Below, piece by piece: positions 7,359 through 31,925 of a stretch of DNA of 31,925 nucleotides. Under the pieces are notes generated by a model, which was given only the letters and a program-made list of their open reading frames with translations, made no database searches and was not told where the DNA came from. Position 1 is the stretch's first letter; each line of letters starts with the position of its first letter. The position numbers and the translations under genes are program-made. The DNA comes from a virus (taxonomy: Duplodnaviria > Heunggongvirae > Uroviricota > Caudoviricetes), in IMG/VR virus record IMGVR_UViG_2917881069_000003, positions 1 to 31,925 of that record; one strand, 5' to 3'.

Positions 7359-7370
7359 AAACTCTTCGAC

Positions 7371-7911: not shown

Positions 7912-7942
7912 CATAAACATTGTTAACGTTAGAGGTTGCATA

Positions 7943-9232: not shown

Positions 9233-9278
9233 AGAACACTTAGCTACAGATACTCCTCACTTTGTATCTGACGCATTT

Positions 9279-9310
9279 ACCCCTCACTCTAAATTAAGGG
9301 GGAGGGGTTT
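9279..9310 (+). terminator. Weak candidate terminator hairpin downstream of the glycosyltransferase-like gene
   Basis: cccctc ... gagggg stem followed by gtttcat; imperfect, long loop. Confidence 0.25.
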
Positions 9311-9454
9311 CATAAAAATAATTATCTGATGTTATTTTTATGTGTCATCACGTCTTTTTTAACTCCAGTTGTTACGGGGAGGACAGTGACTCGTATCAAC
9401 TAAAGTTTGATCTGTAGATAACACTATTTTAAGCAGATACTCATTAAGGCTTGT

Positions 9455-9892
9455 TTATTCTGAAGTCTCCAACTTCATCAAACGACGATTTAAGTCAACA
9501 AAACGTTCCATTAACAAATCCACCTGGCTGACAACAGCACGTAGACACCACCAGAGAAGCTCCTCTTTCCGGAAGCGATAACGGCTTCCAGCTTCGGTTG
9601 CAGGGCGAACAAGAACCCTTTCCGCCTGTCGGGTAAGCACACGGGTTGTCCCGCTCAACAGCTCCCCTTCATCCGAATAAATCGCTGGCTGAACCGGAAT
9701 ATCTTCATACTCTTCCGGTATATCTTCGTACTGTGCCTCCTCCGCTTCCCACGAATCCAGACAAAATGCGCTGTATTTCCGCCAGTCCAGACCGTGTTTC
9801 TCCATCACGGCTATCGCGGCCTGGACTGTCGGCCCGGCGTGCAGACGCGCGTCCTCGCCCTCCTCCTCAATTCTCTGTAACCAGCGCCACAC
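9455..9892 (-). CDS. Hypothetical protein (up to 145 aa) directly downstream of tail fibre H; possible tail fibre assembly/chaperone of a non-P2-G type
   Basis: Occupies the position of P2 G but shows no resemblance to P2 gpG as I recall it; acidic, EE/EY-rich. The ORF-track start is a GTG with a poor RBS; the first ATG is 29 codons in (9805), so the start is uncertain. Confidence 0.45.
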   Translation of the reverse strand: MWRWLQRIEEEGEDARLHAGPTVQAAIAVMEKHGLDWRKYSAFCLDSWEAEEAQYEDIPEEYEDIPVQPAIYSDEGELLSGTTRVLTRQAERVLVRPATEAGSRYRFRKEELLWWCLRAVVSQVDLLMERFVDLNRRLMKLETSE

Positions 9893-12312: not shown

Positions 12313-12322
12313 TGTTTCTCAC

Positions 12323-12853
12323 TTATCCGGGATAAACAGTAATAACATCACCATCACAGACCACACCGCCTGTATACAGACAGCCGGGAATGTCCTGGAT
12401 AATGTTCAGACCGATAAGGTGGCGACTTGCGGGTTTGGCATCGGCAATAAGCCGTTCCATTTCCAGATACATCTCCTCCGTGATGCCGCTTTCCAGCACA
12501 CCGATATCAAGGCGAAAGGTTCCGGGCGGGTCGTTTGTCTCCCACCATTCCTTTACGTTAATGAGATAGCCGAGCGGCTCCACCACGCGTCGGATTGCGC
12601 CTATAGTGCCCTTATGACAGTGAATGAAATAGGCATCGCGGATAACGGCGCGTTTTGTCGCTTCCGGCCATTTTTCATCCCACCTGTCGACCGAAAACGC
12701 CCACGCCAGCCACGGCAGCAGATTTGCCGGGCAGGTGTCCGGGTTCCACAGTTCACGAATACTGACCGGCGTTTTTTCAATTTCCGCACAGGCTTTTGCG
12801 GCGGCGACTTCAAGCGGTGATGAGCCGGTCGGCAGCAGTCGCGAATCACTCAT
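12323..12853 (-). CDS. I: Baseplate protein I (176 aa)
   Basis: Length and position (J-I-H) as in P2. Confidence 0.88.
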   Translation of the reverse strand: MSDSRLLPTGSSPLEVAAAKACAEIEKTPVSIRELWNPDTCPANLLPWLAWAFSVDRWDEKWPEATKRAVIRDAYFIHCHKGTIGAIRRVVEPLGYLINVKEWWETNDPPGTFRLDIGVLESGITEEMYLEMERLIADAKPASRHLIGLNIIQDIPGCLYTGGVVCDGDVITVYPG

Positions 12854-13755
12854 CCGAGCCTCCGGTCACGACGCTGTATTCGGTGCAGAAAGACGCCTGC
12901 GTACTGTTGAGCACAATGTCGGCCAGTGGTGCGGCCAGCTCGACACGCTGCACGCCTTCCACATGCAAAGCGGCATAAATGGCAGACAGACGGATGTCAC
13001 GCCCCAGCCGGTGCTGTGCCGTGATGTACGCTTCCAGTTTTTTCACGGCAGCAGCGCGGATGGGTTCGCTTTCGGGACCAGGGTAAAGGTAAAGCGTGGC
13101 GTTTATCTGGTATTCAACAATGGCGGCAGACTGCACGGTCACGCGGTCGGCCACCGGCCTGACGTCCTCACCATTAAGGGCGTTGCGCACCACCGCCAGC
13201 AGGTCTTCGGATGCCACACCGTTATTTTCACGTGACAGCACGGAGATGGTGACACAGGCAGGAGACGGACTGGTGACAGAGATATCCGCGACACGCCCGT
13301 CGGCACTGCGACCATGATACTGATAGGCTCCCACCGACCCGGCGACGCTTAAACCTTCAAACGCCTGCTGAATACGCAGACGATAATCGGTGTCAGACTC
13401 CATCACTGCCGGTGTCGGCGGGGATGGTCGAATCATCTGCCGGGGTGATAGTCAGGCGCGTGGTGTTGTAATTGGCACCAATCACATCAAGGTCATTACC
13501 GGCGGCACAGGCCAGCATCACCGCCCGTGCGGCCTCATTCACACGCTGACGCCAGATAAGCTCACGATAAGCATTTTCCTCCAGCAGTTTGACGAGAGGC
13601 TCAGATTCCAGCGTCAGGGTACGGGCGACCGCCTCCTGCTGGTCTTCCGGGTAAAGGGAAATCAGTGTCGCCTTGCGTTCGGCAAGAATGGTTTCAAAGT
13701 CCAGCTCCTCGACCACATCCGGTGCGGGTAGCTGGTTCAGGTCGATAATCGGCAT
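12846..13755 (-). pseudogene. J: Baseplate wedge protein J, interrupted by a 1-nt insertion in a G/C run
   Basis: Two overlapping ORFs in different frames (13393-13755 and 12846-13436) together cover the P2 gpJ sequence. 910 nt is one base more than 303 codons (P2 J is 302 aa). The break is at gggg 13420-13423, where the recalled P2 sequence DDSTIPPTPAVMESD needs one fewer G/C. Confidence 0.7.
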
Positions 13756-13759
13756 GGTT

Positions 13760-14107
13760 TCAACTCACAGGGATGGTTAACGAAAGTGGCTGGCCGGTGT
13801 CGTTGTGCTGGCCGGTTAACGTAACTGTCATTCGCCCGTCAAAGCTGCGCGCCGTGGTGACGGATGACAGGGTGACGCGGGGTTCCCATTTCAGCACCGC
13901 CATGTAACAGGCGACCTTAATCTGCAACTCAAGCGCCGGGGTCTGCGGCTGGTCAATCATTGATGCCAGCAACGAGCCGTAATCACGACGCATCACCCGT
14001 GAGCCGACCGGTGTGCGCAGGATATCGCCGATACTCTGGCTGATATGCTCAAGGTCAGTGACAGTCAGGCCATCACTGCGATTCATTCCGAGATAACGCG
14101 CTGTCAT
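13760..14107 (-). CDS. W: Baseplate protein W (115 aa, gp25/lysozyme-like family)
   Basis: Length and position as in P2; ATGA overlap with V. Confidence 0.88.
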   Translation of the reverse strand: MTARYLGMNRSDGLTVTDLEHISQSIGDILRTPVGSRVMRRDYGSLLASMIDQPQTPALELQIKVACYMAVLKWEPRVTLSSVTTARSFDGRMTVTLTGQHNDTGQPLSLTIPVS

Positions 14108-14745
14108 TTTGTCCCCTGTGTCCAGTTGTCTCCTGACTTAACACCACCGTGACCGTGGTCATCCACCTGAACGCCGTTAGACGTGAATTTCCCGTCGGTA
14201 TGCTCGATGTTGCCGTGCATCTTCCCGCCCTTCTGCACTTCCAGCGTGCCGGTAGTCAGTTTGTTAGTGCAGACCACTTCCGGTGTGTCCAGGGTGATGC
14301 GGGTTGACGCTTTCACCATGACCACCGGCACCGTGGCAGTAACAGAATCAGAAGCCGTCACGCTGGCCGTTTTAATTCCGCTTACCGTGAGTGCACTGGT
14401 TTCGGGTTCATATTCAATCACCGCCCCGTCAGGGAAACGGATATGCAGGGCATCCGCCGACGCAGACGGCGCGGGGTTATCACCGGAATAAATCCCCGGC
14501 AGAACGAACGCCGTGTCGAGTTCACCGCCCACGGCCAGAATCAGCACCTGTTCCCCCACGGAAGGTGCCCACCACGTGCGCGAACGCCCGGCGCGACAGG
14601 TCAGCCACTGAAGCCAGTCGGTGCACATGCCGCCGGTCTGCACACGGCAGCGACCGGCGTTAAGGTCGGTTTCGACGACAAGGCCGGTACGAATCATGTT
14701 GCGCAGTACGCGCGCGAGTTCCTGAATATTTGCGAGAGTGTTCAT
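14104..14745 (-). CDS. V: Baseplate spike/assembly protein V (213 aa)
   Basis: Length close to P2 gpV (211 aa) and position as in P2. Confidence 0.88.
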   Translation of the reverse strand: MNTLANIQELARVLRNMIRTGLVVETDLNAGRCRVQTGGMCTDWLQWLTCRAGRSRTWWAPSVGEQVLILAVGGELDTAFVLPGIYSGDNPAPSASADALHIRFPDGAVIEYEPETSALTVSGIKTASVTASDSVTATVPVVMVKASTRITLDTPEVVCTNKLTTGTLEVQKGGKMHGNIEHTDGKFTSNGVQVDDHGHGGVKSGDNWTQGTK

Positions 14746-14811
14746 AACGGGAAGGATGCCGCCGGGTCATACCGGCGGCAATGTGACGATGAGGTGTCGG
14801 GAATGGCACAA

Positions 14812-15264
14812 CTAACGGTCGAGGTGAGCCAGGATAATCTCTTCAATCATCTGCACATCCTCACCGGTAAAGCCGAGCAGAGGACGCGCCGGATAATCAA
14901 TTTTCTTACCGTCTTTCCGGGTTTCTTCCGACAGACCGAACTGATGCACACTGGCGATTTTCGGCGACTTCCCGCCGTAAAATTCCATTGATGCCTGCTC
15001 CGGGCTGGCGCGGATATGCAAAAAACGACTGGTGATAAGTTTCGCAAACATTTTTCGCTTAACGCGACCGGTCTTTTTTCTGGCGCTCTGCTGCTGGCGT
15101 GGCGCATAGGGTGTGCCGTCCGGGGCTTTCTGTGTCATCACCCGACGCTGCTGACTCTGCCGCAGGCGTTTCGCCAGTTCGGCACTCAGTCGCCGACGCC
15201 CTGACGGTGACAGCGACTCAATAAGTCCGGTCAGCCGGTCTTCAAAACGCTTAAACTCATTCAT
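14812..15264 (-). CDS. S: Tail completion protein S (150 aa)
   Basis: Length and position as in P2. Confidence 0.88.
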   Translation of the reverse strand: MNEFKRFEDRLTGLIESLSPSGRRRLSAELAKRLRQSQQRRVMTQKAPDGTPYAPRQQQSARKKTGRVKRKMFAKLITSRFLHIRASPEQASMEFYGGKSPKIASVHQFGLSEETRKDGKKIDYPARPLLGFTGEDVQMIEEIILAHLDR

Positions 15265-21012: not shown

Positions 21013-21185
21013 TGTCAGGAGTCCTGAATAGTGATTAGAGGAGTCACATGTCGGCATCAGTTTCCCGACGATGCGCATCCTCCGCCATCAGTCCCGGATG
21101 GCTTATCACTGACACAACAGCACCTTAGCGAATCGCGGGGCGCGACTCAGTAGCCTTGCCGTGTATTCATCACGGCGAGGTATTC

Positions 21186-22958
21186 ATGACCATCACCACA
21201 GACACCACTCTTTTACACGACCCGCGTCGTCAGGCGGCGCTGCTGTACTGGCAGGGATTTTCCGTGCCGCAGATTGCCGCCATGTTGCAGATGAAACGCC
21301 CGACGGTGCAGAGCTGGAAACAGCGCGACGGCTGGGACAGCGTTGCCCCCATCAGCCGTGTCGAAATGAGTCTGGAAGCGCGGCTGACCCAGCTCATCAT
21401 CAAACCGCAGAAAACCGGCGGTGACTTCAAGGAAATTGACCTGCTGGGACGCCAGATTGAACGACTGGCACGGGTAAACCGTTACAGTCAGACCGGCAAC
21501 GAGGCAGACCTTAATCCGAACGTTGCTAACCGCAACAAAGGCGGGCGCCGCAAACCGAAAAAGAATTTTTTCAGTGACGAGGCCATCGAAAAGCTGGAGC
21601 AGATTTTCTTTGAGCAGTCTTTTGAATATCAGTTGCACTGGTATCGCGCCGGGCTTGAGCACCGCATCCGCGATATTCTGAAATCCCGCCAGATTGGCGC
21701 AACGTTTTATTTTTCCCGCGAGGCGCTGCTGCGCGCCCTGAAAACCGGTCATAACCAGATTTTTCTGTCGGCCAGTAAAACGCAGGCGTATGTGTTCCGC
21801 GAATACATCATCGCCTTTGCCCGTCTGGTTGACGTTGACCTTACCGGTGACCCGATTGTCCTGGGCAATAACGGCGCAAAACTGATTTTTCTCGGCACCA
21901 ACTCCAACACCGCACAGAGCCATAACGGCGACCTGTACGTCGACGAGATTTTCTGGATCCCGAATTTTCAGGTACTGCGTAAGGTGGCATCAGGTATGGC
22001 CTCACAGAGTCACCTGCGCTCGACCTATTTCTCCACCCCGTCCACGCTGGCGCACGACGCCTACCCGTTCTGGTCTGGTGAACTGTTCAACCGGGGACGC
22101 GCCAGCGCCGCCGAACGTGTGGAAATCGACGTCAGTCATAACGCCCTAGCCGGTGGGCTTCTCTGTGCGGACGGTCAGTGGCGGCAGATTGTCACCATTG
22201 AGGATGCCCTGAAAGGTGGCTGCACACTGTTCGACATTGAGCAGCTCAAACGCGAAAACAGCGCCGACGATTTTAAAAACCTGTTCATGTGTGAATTTGT
22301 TGACGACAAGGCGTCGGTGTTCCCGTTCGAGGAGCTGCAACGCTGCATGGTCGACACGCTGGAAGAATGGGAAGACTATGCGCCGTTTGCCGCGAATCCG
22401 TTCGGCTCCCGCCCGGTATGGATTGGTTACGACCCGTCACACCGTGGCGACAGCGCCGGATGCGTGGTACTGGCACCGCCGGTGGTGGCCGGTGGCAAAT
22501 TCAGAATACTTGAGCGTCACCAGTGGAAAGGCATGGACTTTGCCACTCAGGCGGAATCCATCCGCAAACTCACCGAAAAATACAACGTCGAATACATCGG
22601 TATTGATGCCACCGGCCTCGGTGTCGGCGTGTTCCAGCTCGTGCGCTCGTTCTATCCCGCCGCGCGCGATATCCGCTACACACCGGAAATGAAAACCGCA
22701 ATGGTGCTCAAGGCAAAAGACGTTATCCGCCGTGGCTGTCTGGAATATGACGTCAGCGCCACCGACATCACCAGCTCGTTTATGGCTATCCGCAAGACCA
22801 TGACCAGCAGCGGACGCAGCGCCACCTATGAGGCCAGTCGCAGCGAGGAAGCCAGCCACGCCGACCTCGCCTGGGCGACCATGCACGCCCTGTTAAATGA
22901 GCCACTCACCGCCGGTATCAGCACCCCGCTGACATCCACCATTCTGGAGTTTTACTGA
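21186..22958 (+). CDS. P: Terminase large (ATPase) subunit P (590 aa)
   Basis: ATG at 21186 with GAGG RBS gives MTITTDTTLLHDP..., 590 aa as in P2 gpP; divergent from O as in P2. Confidence 0.9.
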   Translation: MTITTDTTLLHDPRRQAALLYWQGFSVPQIAAMLQMKRPTVQSWKQRDGWDSVAPISRVEMSLEARLTQLIIKPQKTGGDFKEIDLLGRQIERLARVNRYSQTGNEADLNPNVANRNKGGRRKPKKNFFSDEAIEKLEQIFFEQSFEYQLHWYRAGLEHRIRDILKSRQIGATFYFSREALLRALKTGHNQIFLSASKTQAYVFREYIIAFARLVDVDLTGDPIVLGNNGAKLIFLGTNSNTAQSHNGDLYVDEIFWIPNFQVLRKVASGMASQSHLRSTYFSTPSTLAHDAYPFWSGELFNRGRASAAERVEIDVSHNALAGGLLCADGQWRQIVTIEDALKGGCTLFDIEQLKRENSADDFKNLFMCEFVDDKASVFPFEELQRCMVDTLEEWEDYAPFAANPFGSRPVWIGYDPSHRGDSAGCVVLAPPVVAGGKFRILERHQWKGMDFATQAESIRKLTEKYNVEYIGIDATGLGVGVFQLVRSFYPAARDIRYTPEMKTAMVLKAKDVIRRGCLEYDVSATDITSSFMAIRKTMTSSGRSATYEASRSEEASHADLAWATMHALLNEPLTAGISTPLTSTILEFY

Positions 22959-23992
22959 TGAGCAAGAAAAAAGGGAAAACACCGCAACCTGCGGCAAAAA
23001 AAATGACCGCCAGCGCCCCGAAAATGGAGGCATTCACCTTTGGTGAGCCGGTGCCGGTACTCGACCGCCGTGACATTCTGGATTACGTCGAGTGCATCAG
23101 TAACGGCAGATGGTATGAGCCGCCGGTCAGCTTTACCGGTCTGGCAAAAAGCCTGCGTGCTGCCGTGCATCACAGCTCACCGATTTACGTCAAACGTAAT
23201 ATTCTGGCCTCGACATTTATCCCGCACCCGTGGCTGTCCCAGCAGGATTTCAGCCGCTTTGTGCTGGATTTTCTGGTGTTCGGTAATGCGTTTCTGGAAA
23301 AGCGTTACAGCACCACCGGTAAGGTCATCAGACTGGAAACCTCACCGGCAAAATATACCCGCCGTGGTGTGGAAGAGGATGTTTACTGGTGGGTGCCGTC
23401 CTTCAACGAGCCGACAGCCTTCGCGCCCGGTTCCGTGTTTCACCTGCTGGAGCCGGATATTAATCAGGAGCTGTACGGCCTGCCGGAATATCTCAGCGCC
23501 CTTAACTCTGCCTGGCTGAATGAGTCGGCCACGCTGTTCCGCCGCAAGTATTACGAAAACGGCGCTCATGCCGGATACATCATGTACGTCACCGATGCCG
23601 TGCAGGATCGCAACGATATCGAAATGCTTCGCGAAAACATGATCAAGTCGAAAGGCCGCAACAACTTTAAAAACCTGTTTCTCTATGCCCCGCAGGGAAA
23701 AGCCGACGGCATTAAAATTATCCCGCTCAGTGAAGTGGCAACGAAGGACGATTTTTTTAATATCAAAAAAGCCAGCGCCGCTGACCTGCTGGACGCGCAC
23801 CGCATCCCCTTTCAGTTGATGGGTGGCAAGCCGGAAAACGTCGGGTCTCTGGGTGATATTGAGAAAGTGGCAAAGGTCTTTGTCCGCAATGAGCTTATCC
23901 CGCTACAGGACAGGATTCGGGAAATAAACGGCTGGCTCGGTCAGGAGGTCATCCGCTTTAAAAACTACTCACTGGACACTGACAACGGCTGA
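22958..23992 (+). CDS. Q: Portal protein Q (344 aa)
   Basis: 344 aa as in P2 gpQ; ATGA overlap with the P stop. Confidence 0.9.
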   Translation: MSKKKGKTPQPAAKKMTASAPKMEAFTFGEPVPVLDRRDILDYVECISNGRWYEPPVSFTGLAKSLRAAVHHSSPIYVKRNILASTFIPHPWLSQQDFSRFVLDFLVFGNAFLEKRYSTTGKVIRLETSPAKYTRRGVEEDVYWWVPSFNEPTAFAPGSVFHLLEPDINQELYGLPEYLSALNSAWLNESATLFRRKYYENGAHAGYIMYVTDAVQDRNDIEMLRENMIKSKGRNNFKNLFLYAPQGKADGIKIIPLSEVATKDDFFNIKKASAADLLDAHRIPFQLMGGKPENVGSLGDIEKVAKVFVRNELIPLQDRIREINGWLGQEVIRFKNYSLDTDNG

Positions 23993-23997
23993 ACATC

Positions 23998-24019
23998 GCC
24001 GCCTGCGGGCGGCTTTTTT
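23998..24019 (+). terminator. Rho-independent terminator after Q (gccgcc tgcg ggcggc + tttttt)
   Basis: 6-bp GC stem, 4-nt loop and T6 tract read directly, 6 nt after the Q stop. Confidence 0.65.
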
Positions 24020-24161
24020 ACACCCCGTCATCACGCCCTCACACGCTCACCACCGCACAAAACACCCCGCAGACACACCAACGCCTCAACGGGCAGACTA
24101 AGCGCCTTCACGACGCGCTCAGACACTGAAAAAATAAAATCAGCACCACCGCCAGCGCGCA

Positions 24162-24180
24162 GTGCTTTCCCCGCCTCGCC
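24162..24180 (-). other. cos: cos cohesive-end site: 19-nt sequence GGCGAGGCGGGGAAAGCAC on the minus strand
   Basis: Plus strand gtgctttccccgcctcgcc is the exact reverse complement of the P2 19-nt cohesive end as I recall it. It lies about 170 bp beyond Q, as in P2, with a CA-rich stretch between the Q terminator and cos. Confidence 0.75.
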
Positions 24181-24370
24181 CGCCCGCTTCATGGGGCTGT
24201 TTTGATGCAGATGCATTATGTCTCCCTCCCCAGTGCTGCGTTGCAGTCGGAACACAAAAACCGTTATCAAAATCACATGCAAATAGACGCAGTCAAATGC
24301 GCTGCCGCCCCTCGCAATACCTTCAATTTCATGATAAAAAAACACAATCCCTTAAAAGAGCATTATCCTC

Positions 24371-25237
24371 ATGAAAAAAGTATATGAACTAACCAGTGAA
24401 GAAGCACTGTCATATTTTCTTCGCCATGATTCCTACACAACCTTAGAATTGCCAGCATATATTAATTTCGCTACGTTATTAAATAATATTAATTCGTCTA
24501 TCCATAACAAAAAAATTAAAATTGAACCAACCGCCAAAGACCTGATGGGTAAAAATATCAATTATGAGGTGCTTGTCAGTAAAGATGGACTATATAGCTG
24601 GCGCAGGATAACACTTATCAATCCTCTTTATTATGTCTACTTCTGTAGAAAAATCACAGCACCAACAACTTGGGAAATCATAACAGAAAAATTCAAATCT
24701 TTTGAATCAAACGACCTTTTTACATGTTCAAGCATCCCCGTCAGGAAAGACGACTCATCAAACATTGCGGCGTCAGTAATGAATTGGTGGGGAGATTTTG
24801 AACAAAAAAGCCTTGCCCTTGCTCTTGAATATGAATTCATGTTCAGCACTGATATCTCAAACTTCTACCCATCAATATATACTCATAGTTTTGAATGGGT
24901 ATTCATATCAAAAGAAGAGGCAAAGAAGAAAAAAGACAAAAACAACCCTGGCCGATTAATTGACAACCACATTCAAATGATGATGAACAATCAGACAAAT
25001 GGTATTCCACTCGGCAGCACATTGATGGATACTTTTGCTGAGCTTATCCTGGGTAAAATCGATATAGAATTAAGAAAAAAAACTAACGAATTCAAGATTA
25101 CAAACTACAAGGTTGTACGTTACCGTGATGATTACCGGATTTTTTCTAATAGTAAAGATGATTTAGACATAATATCCAAATGTTTAGTCAACGTGTTAGG
25201 TGATTTTGGTTTAGATCTAAAACTCAAAAAAAACTGA
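24371..25237 (+). CDS. Reverse transcriptase domain ORF of an Abi-P2/AbiK-like RT (288 aa as sequenced; N-terminal part of a roughly 515-codon gene)
   Basis: RT catalytic motifs in the translation: STDISNFYPSI (motif A, nt 24845-24877), GIPLGSTLMDTFAELIL (motif B, 25001-25051), VRYRDDYRIF (YxDD motif C, 25115-25144). The ORF ends at a TGA immediately after an A8 run. Confidence 0.75.
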   Translation: MKKVYELTSEEALSYFLRHDSYTTLELPAYINFATLLNNINSSIHNKKIKIEPTAKDLMGKNINYEVLVSKDGLYSWRRITLINPLYYVYFCRKITAPTTWEIITEKFKSFESNDLFTCSSIPVRKDDSSNIAASVMNWWGDFEQKSLALALEYEFMFSTDISNFYPSIYTHSFEWVFISKEEAKKKKDKNNPGRLIDNHIQMMMNNQTNGIPLGSTLMDTFAELILGKIDIELRKKTNEFKITNYKVVRYRDDYRIFSNSKDDLDIISKCLVNVLGDFGLDLKLKKN

Positions 25238-25253
25238 GCTATATGAAGATATT

Positions 25254-25919
25254 GTGCTTCACTCCTTGAAACAAGCCAAAAAAGACTATATCAAAGAAAA
25301 AAGACACAAGTCACTCCAGAAAATGCTCTACTCAATATATTTACTCTCACTAAAACATCCAAACTCGAAAACAATCGTTAGATATCTCAATGATTTTCTT
25401 AGAAAATTATTTAGAATGAATACAATTACAGATAACGGTCACCAAATAGATGCCATGCTTGGTATTATTTCAAGCATCATGGCAAAAAACCCTACAACGT
25501 ACCCAGCAGGAACTGCCATTTTCTCAAAACTCCTCAGTTTTCTTTATACTGACGACACATATCCTAAATTCAAAAAACTAGAACAACTCCATAAAAAACT
25601 TGCTAAGCAACCCAATACAGAAATGCTTGATATATGGTTTCAGCGAATTCAAGCAAAAATAAACCCAGAGTGGGAAAGCTCTTATAAGTCAGCTCTATGC
25701 GTCCGTGTAAATGATGAACTCACGAAAAAGAAAACAGTTTCTGAAAATAATTTATGGAATATTGACTGGATTCCAGGAAAAGAAACGAACAGAAACAAAG
25801 CCCAAATATTATCATTACTAACGAAAACAAAAATTGTTGATGCAGAAAAATTTGAGAAAATGGATAATGACATAATACCCGAAGAAGTTGATTTATTCTT
25901 TAAAGAATACAGCAATTAA
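25254..25919 (+). CDS. C-terminal alpha-helical domain ORF of the same RT (221 aa as sequenced, in another frame; ORF-track start is a GTG)
   Basis: The frame is open from 25221. Removing one A from the A8 run at 25226-25233 joins it to the upstream ORF as ...LDLKLKKTELYEDIVLHSLKQ... Lys/Leu-rich helical composition typical of the C-terminal domains of Abi-type RTs. Confidence 0.6.
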   Translation: MLHSLKQAKKDYIKEKRHKSLQKMLYSIYLLSLKHPNSKTIVRYLNDFLRKLFRMNTITDNGHQIDAMLGIISSIMAKNPTTYPAGTAIFSKLLSFLYTDDTYPKFKKLEQLHKKLAKQPNTEMLDIWFQRIQAKINPEWESSYKSALCVRVNDELTKKKTVSENNLWNIDWIPGKETNRNKAQILSLLTKTKIVDAEKFEKMDNDIIPEEVDLFFKEYSN

Positions 25920-25926
25920 TATCCCA

Positions 25927-25958
25927 AAGCCATGCTAGTAACATAACATGGCTTTTCA
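25927..25958. terminator. Candidate terminator hairpin between convergent RT and A genes
   Basis: aagccatg ... catggctt inverted repeat followed by tttcaaa on the + strand. Confidence 0.35.
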
Positions 25959-26022
25959 AATCATCCATTAAGCAGTTATCAAGAGCGAACACAATATTCT
26001 ATTCTGATGAGTTAAATTATCA

Positions 26023-28308
26023 TTAGCTCCACTTAATATCTGTTATATCCTCCGGCCACTCATCAGCGACCGGATACGTAAATTTTTCCCCACAATAGCT
26101 TACCGTTGCCCCACGCGCCAGCACCTCAAGCTCCCATCGCTGCGGCCTGATACCGTTCTGAGCAAGGTCAACGCGGATACGGGTAATTTGCATTCGTTCC
26201 GACCGGGTCAGTCTGGCCGATGGTGCAATTTCATGCGGTTTTAACGGGCTTCCGTTTCTTTGCTGACGATTTGGCGTTCTCAGCCCGTGTTTTAATGCGC
26301 CCCTGAGCGCCTTCACGACCTCCGGGTCATTCCATTCGATAACACCGTCATCAACCAGATTAAGCACTGCTGCGGCGTGCTCAGAAGGTGTGGGAGCCGG
26401 TAACGAAGTATCACCACCGGTGACCTTTCCACAGTTATTGACAGGACTCCGAGGCGCGGCGATGCCGCTTTTTAAAGTCAAAGGCTCAACGACCGGAACT
26501 TTCGGCACAATGCGCCAGTCCGTCGTTCTGGTGATATGAATATGACGCGCGCCGAGATGCGGCGCGTAAATGCCGACCACTCTCTCGACTTCTTCCTCGT
26601 ACTCGTTAACGTCATCCGACGGGCTACGGGCGACCCTGACAGTCTGACAATCGCGCGGGACATTTGCCCCGCCCTGCGCGCTGATATACAACGCAAAATC
26701 ACCACTGTCTGCAGCGGCGCGTGCAGCCTCGACGCGCTCGTCAAACTCATCAGCAATGCTGACGCCGCGAGGCAATTTGCGTAGTTCACGGTAAGCCCCC
26801 ATTGTCGGCAGACCAACCGTTTTAAATTGCGGAATGCGCCACGTTGACGCCCATGCGGTAACAGCCGCAGCTGTGTCTTTCAGCGGCCTACCGGTATCAT
26901 TATCGAGCTGACCATCCAGTGCATAGCCGTCGATGTTTTTTGAGATGTATTTCGCGATATATCCCGCAGCACCGCCCCGGTTAAGGTGTTTTGCCTGAAA
27001 ACGGTTTCGCGCGGCTCCTCTTTCGTCGCCATCCTCTTTGAGCGCATAGCGACGCATGATTTCAATAATCTGGTTACGCTGGCGTGGATTACAAAAAAGC
27101 ATCATATGCCAGTGCGGCGTTCCGTCGTGGTGTGGTTCAACAACACGCAAACCGTAGGCCTGTAAATCATTATCCTTGAATGCCGTGCGCATCAGGCTCC
27201 AGATACGGCAGAGATAACGCTGCGCATCCTTTGGATTAAATGCCTCATCATTCCAGCCGTGATTTAGCTGGACGGTTTTACTTTCGCCTTTTCTGACCTG
27301 ACGTGTCGGGTGATACTTTGACGGCGCGGTCAGCGTGATAAACATCCCCACATCACCCTCTGCGGCAGCGTAACGCTCAATACCGGCGATGGTGTTCATC
27401 AGCTCCATCCGGCGAATTTCTGGATTAGAAATACTGCCCATCACCTTACTGATAAGGTCGATGCGCTCGCCGGTTTCCCTGTTTTCAAGGTCACACGATT
27501 TAAGAAATTCCAGATTTGCCTGGCGGCGCGCACGCACATCACGAATGGCATGTTTACTGGCATAAGGAGAACGGTCTTTATTGACCTCCCCGACAGCAAT
27601 CAGTAACGCCTCATGCCAGCGCATACGCTGGCCTTTAAGCTGATGAGTCCACCATTCATCGTTAAACAGACGGGCAATGGCAGAATATGCCTGCCTCGTG
27701 GTCATCTGCCCTTTACGGTATTTTTTCCAGTAGAGCGGGGAAATATTGAAAGCACGTGCAGCGCCAGCAACATGACCATACAGGTGAGCCTGCGCCTCAT
27801 CCGTAAACAGCGATTCTTTCTCGCCATGCGCATCCACCCAGGCATCGCAGAGTTCCTCATACATTATGAAAAGCTGCGATGAGATACGGGCGGCAAACTT
27901 TTTCAGCTCCTTGTCATTCATTCCAGGCAGGCGCGCATAGTGGTCACGCTCTGCCAGAAACAGCAACGACGCGTCGGTGTTCATTTCATGGCGCTGATTA
28001 ACGCGCTCAATGCGCGGCCATAAACGACGCTGAAAAGTGGATGTGAGGAAATAAAACCCGTGCACCGGGCTTTTATTGCGCCGGATGTAGTCATAGCGTG
28101 AAGTAAACAGCGAGCGCAAAAAGTAAGGCAGGCGATTAATCGTGGATAAAACACCTTGCACCTGACGCATCTCGTCACGTGTAAGGGGTCTTTCGCGCCC
28201 GACGGCCTCGCGTGGCGCGTTCCATGCATAAGCACCGGTAAACGCCTTACCGGTGCCTACGGCAAATGCTGACGGAGGGACAAAACGCCCGGAGGCTTTA
28301 ACGGCCAT
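26023..28308 (-). CDS. A: Replication initiation protein A (rolling-circle endonuclease, 761 aa)
   Basis: Start at MAVKASGRFVPPSAF... (ATG 28306-28308) gives 761 aa as in P2 gpA; the ORF-track version is 14 aa longer. Confidence 0.9.
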   Translation of the reverse strand: MAVKASGRFVPPSAFAVGTGKAFTGAYAWNAPREAVGRERPLTRDEMRQVQGVLSTINRLPYFLRSLFTSRYDYIRRNKSPVHGFYFLTSTFQRRLWPRIERVNQRHEMNTDASLLFLAERDHYARLPGMNDKELKKFAARISSQLFIMYEELCDAWVDAHGEKESLFTDEAQAHLYGHVAGAARAFNISPLYWKKYRKGQMTTRQAYSAIARLFNDEWWTHQLKGQRMRWHEALLIAVGEVNKDRSPYASKHAIRDVRARRQANLEFLKSCDLENRETGERIDLISKVMGSISNPEIRRMELMNTIAGIERYAAAEGDVGMFITLTAPSKYHPTRQVRKGESKTVQLNHGWNDEAFNPKDAQRYLCRIWSLMRTAFKDNDLQAYGLRVVEPHHDGTPHWHMMLFCNPRQRNQIIEIMRRYALKEDGDERGAARNRFQAKHLNRGGAAGYIAKYISKNIDGYALDGQLDNDTGRPLKDTAAAVTAWASTWRIPQFKTVGLPTMGAYRELRKLPRGVSIADEFDERVEAARAAADSGDFALYISAQGGANVPRDCQTVRVARSPSDDVNEYEEEVERVVGIYAPHLGARHIHITRTTDWRIVPKVPVVEPLTLKSGIAAPRSPVNNCGKVTGGDTSLPAPTPSEHAAAVLNLVDDGVIEWNDPEVVKALRGALKHGLRTPNRQQRNGSPLKPHEIAPSARLTRSERMQITRIRVDLAQNGIRPQRWELEVLARGATVSYCGEKFTYPVADEWPEDITDIKWS

Positions 28309-28573
28309 ATGAGCCAAAAGCCTCTGAACAACGCCTGCTGAGTTGCTCAACCTGCGCGTTTAAATCAGCAAAAGACTTTGCGCTTCCGGTCAGAATATCG
28401 TGATGCATCAGGCCGGAAACGAGCTGGCTTAATTTCGGGTAATAACCAACCACCGACAGCCATTCCTGACCGGCGTTTTTACCGCTTTCCGCTCTCTTTT
28501 TCTCGTGGAGAATAAACTGAAAGCTGTCACTGGTAACGACATAACGTTCGCCAATTTCAATACGAATACTCAT
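28298..28573 (-). CDS. Hypothetical early-operon protein (91 aa), overlapping the A start
   Basis: ORF in the P2 early operon position immediately upstream of A; function unknown. Confidence 0.55.
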   Translation of the reverse strand: MSIRIEIGERYVVTSDSFQFILHEKKRAESGKNAGQEWLSVVGYYPKLSQLVSGLMHHDILTGSAKSFADLNAQVEQLSRRCSEAFGSYGR

Positions 28574-28794
28574 GCCGTTCTCCGGTAATGTTTGTTTTTT
28601 GCTTCAAAGACTGACTGACAGGAAACACAACGCGTGGCTGACGGATAAGCCGCACGACGGGCAGCAGGTATTGGCGCATCACACTCTTCGCAAACCAGCG
28701 AAGAAACACCGCAATGTTTTACCCTTGCCGCGTTAATCTGGCGCTCCAGTAATTCAGCCTGTTGTTCCTGAATAAAATCTACGTTGTCCGGCAT
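28570..28794 (-). CDS. TraR/DksA-family C4 zinc-finger protein (74 aa)
   Basis: CEECDAPIP ... RCVSCQ four-cysteine motif in a small early-operon ORF. Confidence 0.65.
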   Translation of the reverse strand: MPDNVDFIQEQQAELLERQINAARVKHCGVSSLVCEECDAPIPAARRAAYPSATRCVSCQSVFEAKNKHYRRTA

Positions 28795-29099
28795 TACCAG
28801 CTCCTTTTGTCGTTCAGCTTCTTAAATTCATCAGCGCAATAGCTGGCGATTTCTGTCGTTAATTTTGTCAGTTCATCCACGGATGAAATTTGCTTATGAA
28901 ATACAGCGCGTTTAACAAGTAAATTGACCACATCAGACAGGAGGTTTAATTCATTCTGATAAATCGCGATAACAGATTCAGTTATGTCGCGTTTTTCTTT
29001 ATCAAGACAAAGTTGAATAAGAGACAAATCACCATTTTCCATAACGGCGATTTTTAAGGCGTTATTCAGTAATACAACTGAATGAGAACAGGACATCAA
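28794..29099 (-). CDS. Hypothetical early-operon protein (101 aa; true start may be internal)
   Basis: ORF in the early operon between B and the zinc-finger gene; no recognisable motif. Confidence 0.45.
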
Positions 29100-29320
29100 A
29101 GTACCTCCCCGCGAGACAATCCGATATTGTGAAATTTTTCCGACTCCTGACTGAGCAGCTCGACTATCTCCACGCGGGATAACTCCGCCTTTGTGATGTG
29201 GCGAATCATGGCGTCAAGATGAGAAGAAAAGCGCGTCGCAGCGTCAGCCTGTGCTTCGGTTCTGGCCTGTTGCAGCAGTAATGCGTATTTACCGCACTGA
29301 TTTTCAGAAACTGTATGCAT
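29096..29320 (-). CDS. Hypothetical early-operon protein (74 aa)
   Basis: Small ORF immediately downstream of B with stop/start coupling to the next ORF. Confidence 0.45.
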
Positions 29321-29383
29321 AACTTTCTCCAGGCAAAAAGAAGCCCCGCACGATTAAGTGCGTTTAAAACTCTGGTTAATTAT

Positions 29384-29884
29384 TTAATGCAGATATTGCT
29401 CTGGTTTTACCGACGTCAGAATTGTCGGTGCATACTCAAACAGGCTGAATAATTCACGTAATGCACGGAATAAAGCATCACGCCAGTAACATGACTCTTC
29501 ATTAATTCGCCAGTATGGCTGGTTGAATTCTTTTTCAGTCAATCCGGCATGCATAAATAAAGTACGACGCTGACTGACTGTTAAAAAACTAATATATGCA
29601 TACTCACTTGCGCCAACCTGACGGCGTTTTGAGAATGCCCCACGCAATTCATCAATTGCACAAACCAGCCGTTCACGTTCGACGTCGTTCATTTCTTCAA
29701 AACGCATCGTTGCATGACGTTGTTTTAACTGCGCATGAAAGCAAACCGTTAGCCGTTCGCGTTCCATCATCTGATTATAATAATCACATGTATCCTGCCA
29801 GCGAGGGACGGCCAGATGCTTACCAATTATCCGGCGCATAGCTGCTGGCTGTTTTTCAACGAGATTAAGCGTCATCACTGTCAT
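29384..29884 (-). CDS. B: Replication protein B (helicase loader, 166 aa)
   Basis: 166 aa beginning MTVMTLNLVEKQPAAMRRIIGKHLAVPRWQ..., matching P2 gpB length and sequence as I recall it. Confidence 0.85.
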   Translation of the reverse strand: MTVMTLNLVEKQPAAMRRIIGKHLAVPRWQDTCDYYNQMMERERLTVCFHAQLKQRHATMRFEEMNDVERERLVCAIDELRGAFSKRRQVGASEYAYISFLTVSQRRTLFMHAGLTEKEFNQPYWRINEESCYWRDALFRALRELFSLFEYAPTILTSVKPEQYLH

Positions 29885-30051
29885 TTCCAGACCCTCCGGC
29901 TTTTCAGAAAGGTCAGAGCCTTCTTTAACGGACTCTGTTTTTTGGTGCGGATAATGATTCCCTTGCGTCCCTTCCCGTGGGTGATGGTGAAGTCAATCGC
30001 CCTGGGGCTTTCGTTACGCAATAACTGAGCAATACAACGCGGCTCCTTCAT
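29881..30051 (-). CDS. Hypothetical small early protein (about 56 aa from the internal start with the best RBS)
   Basis: ATG at 30049-30051 (minus) is preceded by AGGTGGAAAGG; the longer ORF-track version (to 30138) would overlap the cox-like gene by 77 nt. Confidence 0.4.
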   Translation of the reverse strand: MKEPRCIAQLLRNESPRAIDFTITHGKGRKGIIIRTKKQSPLKKALTFLKSRRVWK

Positions 30052-30061
30052 CCTTTCCACC

Positions 30062-30391
30062 TTAAGCCGCACGGCCATGTCTTGATTTGCTATAACTAAT
30101 GCGATTTTTCCAGTCGTGCCATTCTGATGGAGCTTCATCGACTAGCTGTGCTGCGTACTTGTCCCACTCACGACGATTAATCCATAACTCAGCATGACCT
30201 CCCGGCTTTAATGGGTCTGCCATGTAAAAGGCAGGCAGCTTGCCTGCTTTCGCCATTTCAGCTACAGCGCGAGGCGTCTTACCGATGTAAAGAGCAAAAC
30301 CCTCTTTCGAGAGTAGATCCGACGGTGCGGCAGCGAGCTTGATGTCACATTTTTTTACTTTTTGTGAGATCAGATACTTTTTCTCCAACAT
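30062..30391 (-). CDS. cox: Cox-like excisionase/early repressor (HTH DNA-binding, 109 aa as ORF)
   Basis: First gene of the leftward early operon, divergent from C; contains ...GKTPRAVAEMAKAGKLP..., resembling the P2 Cox helix-turn-helix region. Start not verified. Confidence 0.5.
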   Translation of the reverse strand: MLEKKYLISQKVKKCDIKLAAAPSDLLSKEGFALYIGKTPRAVAEMAKAGKLPAFYMADPLKPGGHAELWINRREWDKYAAQLVDEAPSEWHDWKNRISYSKSRHGRAA

Positions 30392-30523
30392 CGTTATTCA
30401 TTTCTGATCCAATACTCATTTTGATATCCTCAACTTTGGTGCCATTCAACCAGAGCTATTTGAAGCCGCTCTGCGTTGTTCTGGCTTGTCGCATGCAACA
30501 TAAATTACGAGATACGACAATTC
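30392..30523. promoter_or_regulatory. Immunity switch region: divergent early (Pe) and repressor (Pc) promoters and operators expected here
   Basis: Intergenic region between the divergent cox-like and C genes, by analogy with the P2 Pe/Pc arrangement; individual -10/-35 and operator repeats not resolved by eye. Confidence 0.4.
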
Positions 30524-30835
30524 ATGTCAAATACACAAATCAAATCTCAAGCAGAGAAACTCGCACTTATTAGGGAGTCAGAAAGGATGACAAGGAAGCA
30601 AGTCGCTGAATTAACTGGGATTAACTACAACACCTATGCTGGATATGAGCAGGGAAAAGTAAAGATGTCTTTTGACGCAGGTATGAAATTTTTCAAGCCA
30701 GAAAGATTTCGCAAGTACCGTGACTGGTTCATGTTTGATGAAACTGATCCCGCTGGCGGACAAATAGCCCCGGCGCTCGCGCACATTGGGCAAGACTCAA
30801 CAACCTTGCACCACTCAGACCAAAAGACTGGCTGA
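30524..30835 (+). CDS. C: Immunity repressor C (103 aa), P2 C-like but divergent
   Basis: ATG at 30524 gives MSNTQIKSQAEKLALIRESERMTRKQVAELTGINYNTYAGYEQGK... with an HTH; the C-terminal ...GGQIAPALAHIGQDSTTLHHSDQKTG resembles the P2 C C-terminus as I recall it. Confidence 0.72.
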   Translation: MSNTQIKSQAEKLALIRESERMTRKQVAELTGINYNTYAGYEQGKVKMSFDAGMKFFKPERFRKYRDWFMFDETDPAGGQIAPALAHIGQDSTTLHHSDQKTG

Positions 30836-30928
30836 CGATTTATTCAGCATATGTGTGCAGTAAATGTACGAAAGAAAATTGCATTAATTTTCAAGTAGTA
30901 GAAGTAAACAGCGTCATCGGAGGGCTTT

Positions 30929-31925
30929 ATGTCTATTAAAAAGCTCGATGATGGTCGTTATGAAGTGGACGTCAGACCGCAGGGTGCAGATGGAAAACGT
31001 ATCAGGCGGAAATTTAAAACTAAGGGTGAAGCTCAAGCATTCGAACGTCATGTCCTGGTTAACTACCACAACAAAGAGTGGTTGGAGAAGCCAGCCGACC
31101 GCCGAACTCTTACAGAGTTGTTAGGCAGATGGTGGATATATCACGGAAAATCACATGAGCGTGGAGATATTGAACGGGGGGCGTTTGACGACAATAATCG
31201 CCAAATTTGCAGAAATGGGAGTGTCCAGAGCTGACCAGCTAACAAAGAAAACGATAACTGATTATCGCGTTGTAATGATGAACGATGGTCTTAAACCAGC
31301 CAGCGTAAATCGGCATCTGGCAATAATGAGCGGGATGTTCACCAAGTTAATTGACGCCGGTGAATACCACTCTCACAACCCGTTCCGTGAGGTTAAGCGG
31401 TTACGTGAAGCTGTTACGGAAATGGCTTTTTTGTCCAGTGAAGAGATTACGCGGCTGTTATCCATGCTTGATGGTGATGAATTAAATGCAACTCTGGTCT
31501 GCCTTTCTACTGGTGGACGCTGGAGTGAAGTGTCAAATTTAAAAGCTGAACACATCATTAACCAGATGGTTACGTTTATGAAAACTAAAAACGGAAAGCG
31601 CAGGACAATTCCCGTGTCGCAGGACCTGATTAAACGGATCAAGACCAAAAATTCAGGCAGGCTTTTTAATGCCAGTTACTACAAAGTGCGCAACGCTCTC
31701 AGGGAAGTAAAACCCGATTTACCTGACGGACAGGCAGTGCATGTTTTGAGGCATACATTTGCCACACATTTTATAATGAATGGAGGTAACATAATCACAT
31801 TGCAGCGCATCCTGGGTCATTCTAACATTCAGCAAACTATGACCTACGCACACTTTGCACCGGATTTCTTACAAGATGCAGTGACTCTTAACCCGGTGTC
31901 AGGAATGTCCATAATGCGTCCATAA
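30929..31925 (+). pseudogene. int: Tyrosine integrase (P2 Int family), interrupted by a 1-nt indel in a G6 run
   Basis: Two ORFs in different frames (30929-31234 and 31155-31925). N-terminus MSIKKLDDGRYEVDVRPQG...; C-terminal catalytic region with HVLRHTFATH...LGHSNIQQTMTYAHF (R, H-x-x-R, Y). Removing one G from gggggg at 31176-31181 restores a single reading frame of about 331 aa. Confidence 0.75.

What the first reader, a model, noticed from the sequence alone, without database searches (positions are those of the whole stretch)
24181..26022. Abi-P2/AbiK-like reverse transcriptase occupying the cos-proximal (tin/old) cargo hotspot
Between cos (24162-24180) and the 3' end of replication gene A (26023), where P2 carries tin and old, this genome has an AT-rich island encoding about 515 codons over two adjacent frames. 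The translation carries the canonical RT motifs: D-I-S-N-F-Y-P-S-I (motif A), G-I-P-L-G-S-T-L-x-x-x-F-A-E-L (motif B) and R-Y-R-D-D (YxDD box with the Ala replaced by Arg), followed by a roughly 250-aa Lys/Leu-rich helical C-terminal region. There is no intron-encoded-protein, retron msd/msr or Cas context. That architecture fits the abortive-infection RT group that includes AbiK, AbiA and the Abi-P2 RTs reported from the variable region of P2-like coliphages. The Arg in the YxDD box is worth a look as a possible subfamily signature.
Basis: partly seen in the sequence, partly recalled or inferred. Interest (0 to 1): 0.78.

Follow-up and report, generated by a model that had tools for sequence, protein, structure and literature searches.

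The report
Known Abi-P2 anti-phage polymerase gene
This is an ordinary copy of Abi-P2, a well-studied anti-phage reverse-transcriptase-like gene that sits in the known cargo slot of P2-type prophages, and the break in its reading frame is most likely an error in the deposited assembly.

Summary
Between an exact P2 cos site (24162-24180) and the stop of replication gene A (26023) lies a 1.8-kb AT-rich island. It carries one gene (24371-25919, + strand) read in two frames. The gene is an unambiguous Abi-P2: PADLOC AbiP2 E=1.5e-160 over the whole profile, and 90% amino-acid identity to P2-EC30 ORF570, the founding member with a crystal structure (PDB 7R08). It sits in the published gpQ-gpA defence hotspot. 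The priming Tyr (Y30), the catalytic D161 and D253/D254, and the helical C-terminal domain are all present. YRDD is invariant across the family and is already described in the literature.

Two corrections apply. The frameshift is an extra A in the A4 run at 25218-25221, not in the A8 run, which intact relatives also carry. It is also probably an assembly artefact. The window (Escherichia sp. E2661, GCA_004745185.1) has three other +1 homopolymer insertions; two break gene J and int. All three are absent from an otherwise identical independent assembly of run SRR6148326. An intact 515-aa protein identical to the repaired translation also exists in public data.

The inferred mechanism is protein-primed, template-independent ssDNA synthesis by a trimer, causing abortive infection. 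It is already known, and interest is low.

The parts
22958..23992 (+). Portal gene Q, the left flank of the hotspot
   Evidence: 344-aa ORF. It is 99.7% identical to the portal of phage P2_2H1. Its exact sequence is WP_135519324.1 of Escherichia sp. E2661.
24162..24180 (.). cos, the 19-nt cohesive end
   Evidence: The reverse complement equals P2 cosL/cosR, GGCGAGGCGGGGAAAGCAC.
24210..24370 (+). 5' leader of abi-P2, the start of the cargo segment
   Evidence: Homology to P2 stops at 24209. The leader has no Rfam match and folds no better than shuffled sequence (z=+0.54). The best promoter candidate is only an extended -10, TGaTAAAAA, at 24332-24340; this is an inference. An SD-like AAGAG lies at 24356-24360. 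The A7 run at 24336-24342 is A6 in relatives. It puts the 'ORF570' N-terminal extension out of frame, and the independent assembly shows the same A7.
24371..25919 (+). abi-P2 coding sequence (515 codons plus stop, with one extra base at 25218-25221)
   Evidence: PADLOC AbiP2 E=1.5e-160 over profile positions 4-487 of 489. PDB 7R08 E=0. Deleting one A of the A4 run gives a protein identical to P0003, 515 aa.
24371..25217 (+). RT-like domain (fingers and palm, no thumb), codons 1-282
   Evidence: RVT_1 covers residues 142-287. The region aligns to 7R08 residues 32-313. Domain description is from PMC9508834.
24458..24460 (+). Tyr30 codon, the protein-priming tyrosine (Tyr61 of the 7R08 construct)
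   Evidence: The construct carries 31 extra N-terminal residues. Y61F abolishes DNA synthesis (PMC9508834). Y30 is invariant in 36 homologues.
24851..24853 (+). Asp161 codon, the catalytic Asp of motif A (TDISNFYPSI)
   Evidence: Invariant in alignment A1 and lies within the RVT_1 match.
24992..25051 (+). Motif B (RT4), QTNGIPLGSTLMDTFAELIL
   Evidence: Q208, T209, N210, G211, I212, P213, G215, L218, D220, E224 and L227 are invariant.
25121..25132 (+). Motif C, Y251-R252-D253-D254 (YRDD)
   Evidence: R250 through Y255 are invariant in 36 homologues down to 36% identity. The nearest solved relatives read RYVDD. YRDD is published as the Abi-P2 active site (PMC8632793).
25218..25221 (+). Frameshift site: an A4 run where all intact relatives have A3
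   Evidence: Alignment with P2-EC30 and two E. coli prophages. Removing one A reproduces P0003 exactly.
25226..25233 (+). A8 run. It is not the lesion and is the same length in intact genes
25222..25916 (+). C-terminal alpha-helical (solenoid) domain, codons 284-515
   Evidence: AbiP2 profile positions 296-487. The region aligns to 7R08 up to residue 541. According to PMC9508834 it holds the nascent ssDNA and makes the trimer contacts.
25926..25955 (.). Hairpin between the convergent abi-P2 and A genes, a likely two-way terminator
   Evidence: -11.9 kcal/mol (z=-4.5) on the + strand, followed by UUUU. -16.1 kcal/mol (z=-4.1) on the - strand.
26023..28308 (-). Replication gene A, the right flank of the hotspot
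   Evidence: 761-aa product with PF05840. It is 97.9% identical to P2_2H1 gpA. Homology to P2 resumes at 26052.

Best explanation
The island carries a single gene, abi-P2. This is the abortive-infection polymerase first found as ORF570 of prophage P2-EC30. Here it lies in a P2-like prophage of Escherichia sp. E2661, in the cos-proximal cargo slot between gpQ and gpA.

By close homology (an inference from 90% identity to the studied protein), the 515-aa product forms a trimer. Its thumbless RT-like palm/fingers domain attaches the first nucleotide to its own Tyr30. It then extends single-stranded DNA of random sequence without any template or non-coding RNA. The C-terminal helical domain takes the place of a template strand and forms the trimer interfaces.

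In the lysogen this activity excludes a superinfecting phage (T5 in the case of ORF570) by abortive infection. The trigger and the killing step are not known for Abi-P2. The nearest worked-out model is DRT4/DRT6, where a phage DNA-binding protein shields the ssDNA from host exonuclease and toxic ssDNA builds up.

The frame break in the window is one extra A at 25218-25221. It is most likely (about 0.8) an error of assembly GCA_004745185.1, so the real gene is probably intact.
For: Identity of the gene:
- PADLOC AbiP2 scores 533 bits (E=1.5e-160) over the whole profile; the next best is Drt6 at 154 bits.
- PDB 7R08, Abi-P2 of P2-EC30, matches with E=0. Protein identity to ORF570 is 90.1% by tblastn.
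- The island is 90.6% identical in DNA to AM157365.1, and about 90.5% identical to the same locus in 10 complete E. coli genomes.
- Y30, D161 and RYRDDY are invariant in 36 homologues.

Locus: the cos site is exact and the cargo boundaries are mapped. The hotspot is described in PMC9122126.

No RNA partner: there is no Rfam match and the leader is unstructured.

Mechanism (PMC9508834): trimer, template-independent synthesis, Y61F inactive, role of the helical domain. T5 exclusion and its loss on deleting the YRDD region are from PMC8632793.

Selection: dN/dS against ORF570 is 0.155 overall, 0.08 in the RT part and 0.215 in the helical part.

Frameshift as artefact:
- The repaired translation equals P0003, a 515-aa protein from an independent Logan assembly.
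- Over 15.4 kb, the window differs from the Logan contigs of SRR6148326 by exactly three changes and no substitutions. All three are +1 homopolymer insertions in the window. Two of them break gene J and int, which are intact (302 aa and 331 aa) in Logan.
Against: - The Logan contigs of SRR6148326 stop at 25081 and resume at 25369. The RT frameshift site itself is not covered by the independent assembly.
- I could not look up the run that yielded P0003, so it may come from a related strain.
- No activity was measured for this allele. It differs from ORF570 at 51 residues, mostly in the helical domain.
- No convincing sigma-70 promoter was found in the leader.
- The in vivo trigger and effector step are unknown for Abi-P2 and are borrowed here from DRT4.
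Confidence: 0.9

Rival explanations
1. The +1 A is real. In strain E2661, abi-P2 is a very recent pseudogene that yields a 288-aa RT domain without its helical domain and is therefore inactive.
For: - The sequence as deposited has the break, and NCBI annotates two proteins, WP_240782740.1 and WP_240782741.1.
- The site is not covered by the independent contigs.
- Costly abortive-infection genes are commonly lost (general knowledge).
- The helical domain is needed for trimer formation and DNA handling (PMC9508834), so a split would be expected to inactivate the protein.
Against: - Every other indel discrepancy found in this window is a +1 homopolymer insertion present only in the GenBank assembly.
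- The rest of the gene carries no other lesion.
- dN/dS is 0.155.
- An intact allele with an identical amino-acid sequence exists.
Confidence: 0.17
2. The break is real but is bypassed. RNA polymerase slippage or a +1 ribosomal slip on the A8 run 5 nt downstream restores the frame (...LKLKKTELYE...). This would give low-level or switchable expression of a toxic Abi protein. Alternatively, the two halves assemble as separate polypeptides.
For: - Deleting one A within A8 in the mRNA would restore the frame and change only N285K and S286L. The invariant K287 and T288 would be kept (my own reading of the sequence).
- Runs of A are known slippage sites (general knowledge).
Against: - The A8 run is present unchanged in intact genes, so it is not an adaptation to the break.
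- The orf544-type alleles interrupt the run (LNSRKT).
- No stimulatory structure lies downstream (z=-0.19).
- The truncated homologues in the database are fragments or truncated gene calls whose sequence continues normally across the frameshift site; none shows a recurrent frameshift here.
- The artefact explanation already accounts for the break.
Confidence: 0.03
3. It is a templated retroelement RT (retron, group II intron, DGR or CRISPR-associated) whose RNA or partner genes were overlooked.
For: Weak similarity of the palm region to group II intron and retron RTs.
Against: - All those NCBIfam matches fall far below their cut-offs: 39 bits against 300 for the group II maturase, and 30 against 235 for the retron RT.
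- There are no Rfam retron msr or intron hits at E<=1.
- The island holds one gene only.
- The closest homologue has been shown to synthesise DNA without a template (PMC9508834).
Confidence: 0.01

Closest known systems
Abi-P2 of prophage P2-EC30 (ORF570; AM157365.1 / CAJ43154.1; PDB 7R08)
   Same: - 90.1% protein identity and the same 515-aa core length.
- The same locus (cos to gene A), orientation, leader and terminator hairpin.
- The same priming Tyr, YRDD box and helical domain.
   Different: - 51 amino-acid differences, concentrated in the helical domain (dN 0.087 against 0.021 in the RT part).
- The leader has A7 instead of A6, so the 31-55-codon N-terminal extension annotated as ORF570 is out of frame. 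This supports MKKVYE as the true start, and those residues are invisible in 7R08.
- One extra A breaks the frame in the deposited sequence.
- The host is a cryptic-clade Escherichia rather than E. coli.
Abi-P2 of P2-EC58 (orf544) and phage pro147
   Same: Same family, same hotspot and same architecture, at about 75% identity.
   Different: A more distant allele group with an unrelated upstream extension. The A8 run is interrupted (LNSRKT).
AbiK of Lactococcus lactis (PDB 7R06 / 7Z0Z)
   Same: A thumbless RT-like domain plus a helical domain. It performs Tyr-primed, template-independent DNA synthesis and forms a trimer-based oligomer (PMC9508834). Its palm domain aligns at E about 4e-8.
   Different: - The PADLOC AbiK profile gives only 100 bits, against 533 for AbiP2.
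- The active site reads YVDD, not YRDD.
- The helical domains are not homologous, and AbiK forms a hexamer (PMC9508834).
DRT4 (UG15) and DRT6 single-gene defence RTs
   Same: They are the next-best profile matches after AbiP2 (Drt6 154 bits, Drt4 141 bits). DRT4 makes protein-primed random ssDNA as a dimer of trimers (PMC12783706).
   Different: - They are separate families; the NCBIfam Drt4 match scores 118 bits against a cut-off of 450.
- They have different C-terminal domains.
- Their phage trigger, the DNA-binding protein ORF55, has not been shown to act on Abi-P2.
P2 old/tin cargo at the same hotspot
   Same: It occupies the same gpA-to-cos slot, is transcribed away from cos, and is AT-rich lysogenic-conversion cargo (PMC9122126).
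   Different: The proteins are unrelated (OLD nuclease, Tin, Orf91). That cargo is 3.26 kb, against 1.84 kb here.

Membership tests
Abi-P2 (UG/Abi class of defence RTs) | Full-length match to the family profile that clearly beats sister families | tested here: met
   PADLOC AbiP2 E=1.5e-160, 533 bits, profile positions 4-487 of 489. The next best is Drt6 at 154 bits.
Abi-P2 (UG/Abi class of defence RTs) | Close similarity to the founding protein, P2-EC30 ORF570 (structure 7R08) | tested here: met
   90.1% identity over 515 aa with no gaps.
Abi-P2 (UG/Abi class of defence RTs) | RT palm motifs with a YRDD active site | tested here: met
   D161 and R250-Y255 (RYRDDY) are invariant in 36 homologues. 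YRDD is named as the Abi-P2 active site in PMC8632793.
Abi-P2 (UG/Abi class of defence RTs) | Priming tyrosine on the alpha2-alpha3 loop of the fingers (Tyr61 of the 7R08 construct) | tested here: met
   Y30 aligns with Tyr61 and is invariant. Its priming function was not assayed here.
Abi-P2 (UG/Abi class of defence RTs) | Family-specific C-terminal helical domain in place of a thumb | tested here: met
   The second ORF matches AbiP2 profile positions 296-487 at E=6.8e-41 and aligns to 7R08 up to residue 541.
Abi-P2 (UG/Abi class of defence RTs) | Single-gene system with no associated ncRNA or effector gene | tested here: met
   There is one gene in the 1.84-kb island. No Rfam family matches at E<=1, and the leader fold gives z=+0.54.
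Abi-P2 (UG/Abi class of defence RTs) | Uninterrupted reading frame | tested here: inconclusive
   The frame is broken in the window by +1 A at 25218-25221. Three other +1 homopolymer insertions in the same assembly are absent from an independent assembly of SRR6148326, and an intact identical protein exists. The site itself is not covered.
Abi-P2 (UG/Abi class of defence RTs) | Template-independent, protein-primed DNA synthesis and phage (T5) exclusion | not testable with these tools
   Shown for ORF570 (PMC9508834; Odegrip 2006 as cited in PMC8632793). Inferred here from 90% identity.
P2 gpQ-gpA (cos-proximal) defence hotspot cargo | Lies between the portal gene/cos and replication gene A of a P2-like prophage, with atypical composition | tested here: met
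   The cos is exact, and homology to P2 ends at 24209 and resumes at 26052. GC is 0.30-0.38 against about 0.55 in the flanks. The hotspot is defined in PMC9122126.
AbiK | Best match to the AbiK profile, and an AbiK-type helical domain | tested here: not met
   AbiK profiles score 94-100 bits, against 533 for AbiP2. Only the palm region aligns to 7R06/7Z0Z. The helical domains of the two families share no sequence homology (PMC9508834).
Retron RT / group II intron RT | Score above the family cut-off, with the cognate structured RNA next to the gene | tested here: not met
   The NCBIfam retron_St85_RT match is 30 bits (cut-off 235) and the group_II_RT_mat match is 39 bits (cut-off 300). There are no Rfam hits.
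DRT4 / DRT6 | Score above the curated equivalog cut-off | tested here: not met
   The NCBIfam Drt4 match is 118 bits against a cut-off of 450. The PADLOC Drt6 and Drt4 matches are 154 and 141 bits, against 533 for AbiP2.

The most novel reading that the evidence does not exclude
The extra A at 25218-25221 is real, and the gene is still expressed. RNA-polymerase slippage or a +1 ribosomal slip on the adjacent A8 run (25226-25233) occasionally restores the frame. A toxic abortive-infection polymerase would then be kept at a very low or stochastic level, as a homopolymer-controlled switch. Alternatively, the RT and helical domains work as two separate polypeptides.
Probability: 0.03. Interest if true: 0.45.

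Novelty: already known. Interest (0 to 1): 0.1.

Why it matters
It matters little beyond correct annotation. The gene family, its structure, its biochemistry, its YRDD box and its position in the P2 hotspot are all published.

There are two practical points:
- The two NCBI proteins, WP_240782740.1 and WP_240782741.1, are almost certainly halves of one 515-aa Abi-P2.
- Assembly GCA_004745185.1 carries +1 homopolymer insertion errors that create false pseudogenes (J, int, and probably abi-P2). Frameshifts in this assembly should not be read as biology.

The allele is a natural variant with 51 substitutions, concentrated in the helical domain. It could be useful for mapping which surface sets phage specificity.

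Tried and rejected
- Upstream structured RNA. There is no Rfam match at E<=1 in 23900-26200, and the fold of 24181-24370 is no better than shuffles (z=+0.54). Rejected.
- Frameshift in the A8 run. Rejected: intact relatives have the same A8, and the extra base is in the A3/A4 run just upstream. My first 'repair' removed the C after the run by mistake.
- Recurrent frameshifting or phase variation at this site in the family. The shortened homologues (P0073, P0075-P0078) read normally across the frameshift site and look like fragments or truncated gene calls, not frameshifts. Rejected.
- A frameshift-stimulating structure after the A8 run. None was found (z=-0.19).
- The long N-terminal extension (ORF570 / the 541-aa construct) as the true start. 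Rejected: it is out of frame here, unrelated in orf544, and invisible in the crystal. The family consensus starts at MKxIxEL.
- Look-ups of the broken J and int N-terminal ORFs found nothing on record. I used neighbouring genes instead.
- The original Odegrip 2006 paper (PMC1367236) is not held. Its results are cited through PMC9508834 and PMC8632793.
- The sigma-70 scan found no convincing promoter in the leader.
- A crystal structure at 90% identity makes them unnecessary.
Full report
**What is in the sequence**

Window 24162-24180 is the exact reverse complement of the P2 cohesive end, GGCGAGGCGGGGAAAGCAC. To its left the portal gene Q (22958-23992, +) runs towards cos. To its right the replication gene A (stop at 26023, minus strand) also runs towards cos. 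GC content drops from 0.50-0.60 in the flanks to 0.30-0.38 between them. Homology to phage P2 ends at 24209 and resumes at 26052. The foreign segment is therefore 24210-26051 (1.84 kb), where P2 has 3.26 kb carrying old, tin and orf91.

The segment holds two + strand ORFs in adjacent frames, 24371-25237 (288 aa) and 25254-25919 (221 aa). Nothing else in it is credible.

**What it is**

- The first ORF passes the Pfam RVT_1 threshold.
- The two ORFs match the PADLOC AbiP2 profile in order: positions 4-286 at E=2.6e-110 and positions 296-487 at E=6.8e-41.
- The joined protein scores 533 bits (E=1.5e-160) over the whole AbiP2 profile. Drt6 scores 154 bits, Drt4 141 and AbiK 100.
- Against solved structures the best hit is 7R08 at E=0. 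That entry is the crystal structure of Abi-P2 from prophage P2-EC30 (PMC9508834).
- The island is 90.6% identical in DNA to the P2-EC30 ORF570 record AM157365.1. It is about 90.5% identical to the same cos-to-A locus in 10 of 5,426 complete E. coli genomes.
- Protein identity to ORF570 is 90.1% without gaps.
- Matches to retron and group II intron RT models lie far below their cut-offs.
- No Rfam family matches the region at E<=1, and the 190-nt leader folds no better than shuffled sequence.

It is therefore a single-gene Abi-P2 system, not a retroelement.

**Residues that matter**

The 7R08 construct carries 31 extra N-terminal residues that are invisible in the crystal. Its priming Tyr61 is therefore Tyr30 here (codon 24458-24460), and its Tyr282 is Tyr251 of YRDD. 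In an alignment of 36 homologues down to 36% identity, Y30, D161 and the block R250-Y-R-D-D-Y255 are invariant.

The nearest solved relatives (AbiK, Drt3b and two UG-type RTs) all read RYVDD. The Arg is therefore a true Abi-P2 family signature, replacing Val rather than Ala. This is not new: a 2021 review describes Y(R/V)DD as the Abi active site. It also notes that deleting the YRDD-encoding part of ORF570 abolishes T5 resistance (PMC8632793).

**True start**

The ORF570 annotation (570 aa) and the 541-aa construct begin upstream of MKKVYE. In this window an A7 run (24336-24342; A6 in relatives) puts that extension out of frame. The independent read assembly shows the same A7. The extension is unrelated in the orf544 allele, and the family consensus begins at MKxIxEL. 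RefSeq also starts at MKKVYE. I therefore place the start at 24371, preceded by AAGAG at 24356-24360.

**The frameshift**

Alignment with P2-EC30 and two E. coli prophages shows only one indel inside the coding sequence. The window reads CTAAAACTC where the others read CTAAACTC, an extra A in the run at 25218-25221. Removing one A of the A4 run gives a 515-aa protein identical to P0003, a protein found in an independent Logan assembly.

dN/dS against ORF570 is 0.155 (0.08 in the RT part, 0.215 in the helical part). The lineage has therefore been under purifying selection, and the break is either very recent or not real.

**Is the break real?**

The window comes from Escherichia sp. E2661, GCA_004745185.1, contig PDIG01000018.1. 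A tblastn check of P2 core proteins showed that baseplate gene J and the integrase are also split between frames.

Three Logan contigs of run SRR6148326 carry the same prophage. They cover window 10103-15024, 21101-25081 and 25369-31925. Over those 15.4 kb they differ from the window by no substitutions and by exactly three indels:
- G4 in the window against G3 at 13420, which breaks J;
- T7 against T6 at 30350;
- G6 against G5 at 31176, which breaks int.

Each is a +1 homopolymer insertion in the window. In the Logan contigs J (302 aa) and int (331 aa, both Pfam domains) are intact.

The abi-P2 lesion is the same kind of event. Unfortunately the Logan contigs end at 25081 and restart at 25369, so the site itself is not covered, and I could not look up the contig encoding P0003. 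I put the probability that the break is an assembly artefact at about 0.8. A real, very recent pseudogene gets about 0.17, and a bypassed or switchable frameshift about 0.03.

**How it most likely works**

This is inferred from the 90%-identical studied protein. What has been shown for P2-EC30 Abi-P2 is as follows:
- It is a stable trimer.
- Each subunit has a palm/fingers RT-like domain without a thumb, plus an 11-helix solenoid.
- The enzyme makes DNA from dNTPs with no template or primer.
- Y61F abolishes synthesis.
- The helical domain lines the channel for the nascent single strand and forms the trimer contacts (PMC9508834).

The trigger and the lethal step have not been shown for Abi-P2. 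The closest worked-out case is DRT4/DRT6. There a phage DNA-binding protein protects the random ssDNA from host exonuclease, and the ssDNA accumulates to toxic levels (PMC12783706). I adopt that as the likeliest model, as an inference only.

If the break were real, the RT domain would be separated from the helical domain just after the palm, at codon 283. The protein should then be inactive.

**Other anatomy**

A hairpin at 25926-25955 lies between the convergent abi-P2 and A genes. It scores -11.9 kcal/mol with a U-tract on the + strand and -16.1 kcal/mol on the minus strand (z about -4), and it looks like a shared terminator. No good sigma-70 promoter was found. The best candidate is an extended -10, TGaTAAAAA, at 24332-24340.

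**Comparison and novelty**

The cos-proximal gpQ-gpA region is a published hotspot of anti-phage cargo in P2-like phages, with 1,650 gene arrangements reported in E. coli (PMC9122126). Abi-P2 was first found there. Among phage records only P2-EC30 (90%), P2-EC58 and pro147 (75%), and two Listeria phages (29%) carry relatives. In the protein database the family has more than 500 members.

This copy is simply another allele of the founding subgroup, in a cryptic-clade Escherichia. I rate it as already known, with low interest.

Noticed in passing
window 13420-13423, 30344-30350 and 31171-31176: The deposited assembly has +1 homopolymer insertions relative to an otherwise identical Logan assembly of SRR6148326 (G4 against G3, T7 against T6, G6 against G5). 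They split baseplate gene J and the integrase and alter the 5' end of cox. All three genes are intact in the Logan contigs.
   Followed up: yes
window ~7000-9600 (ORF 7943-9232, +): A second AT-rich island (GC 0.31-0.39) lies between tail sheath gene FI and the tail-fibre genes, at the position of the P2 Z/fun cargo slot. It encodes a 429-aa family-2 glycosyltransferase (PF00535, E=5e-29) with no PADLOC match. It may be a lysogenic-conversion or surface-modification gene.
   Followed up: partly
L003 (E. coli UPEC-245U, NZ_CP049845.1) 762-2650 and 3190-4737: This related prophage carries a retron Ec48 (RT plus membrane effector) between portal gene Q and cos, and Abi-P2 between cos and gene A. 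Cargo can therefore sit on both sides of cos, and two RT-based defences coexist in one hotspot.
   Followed up: no
L009 (NC_049386.1, phage P2_2H1), opposite window 22908: The reference phage's large terminase gene has a 36-bp insert, CCTGTCTCTTATACACATCTGACGCTGCCGACGACC, that is absent from the window. It looks like Nextera adapter sequence left in that public record.
   Followed up: no
window 24371-25919, compared with L001: Amino-acid changes relative to P2-EC30 ORF570 are concentrated in the helical domain (about 46 non-synonymous differences, dN 0.087) rather than the RT domain (14 differences, dN 0.021). This may reflect faster evolution of a phage-facing surface.
   Followed up: partly
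window 24031-24345 (-) and 24202-24387 (+): A 104-aa minus-strand ORF spans cos. A gene caller called it, but it has no family match and is probably spurious. The 61-aa + strand ORF is the out-of-frame remnant of the 'ORF570' N-terminal extension.
   Followed up: partly
window 25081-25369: Both Logan contigs of SRR6148326 end inside the abi-P2 gene. One ends within the A8 run at 25075-82 and the other resumes at 25369, leaving 287 bp, including the frameshift site, unassembled. This suggests low coverage or read heterogeneity in this AT-rich, homopolymer-rich stretch.
   Followed up: no
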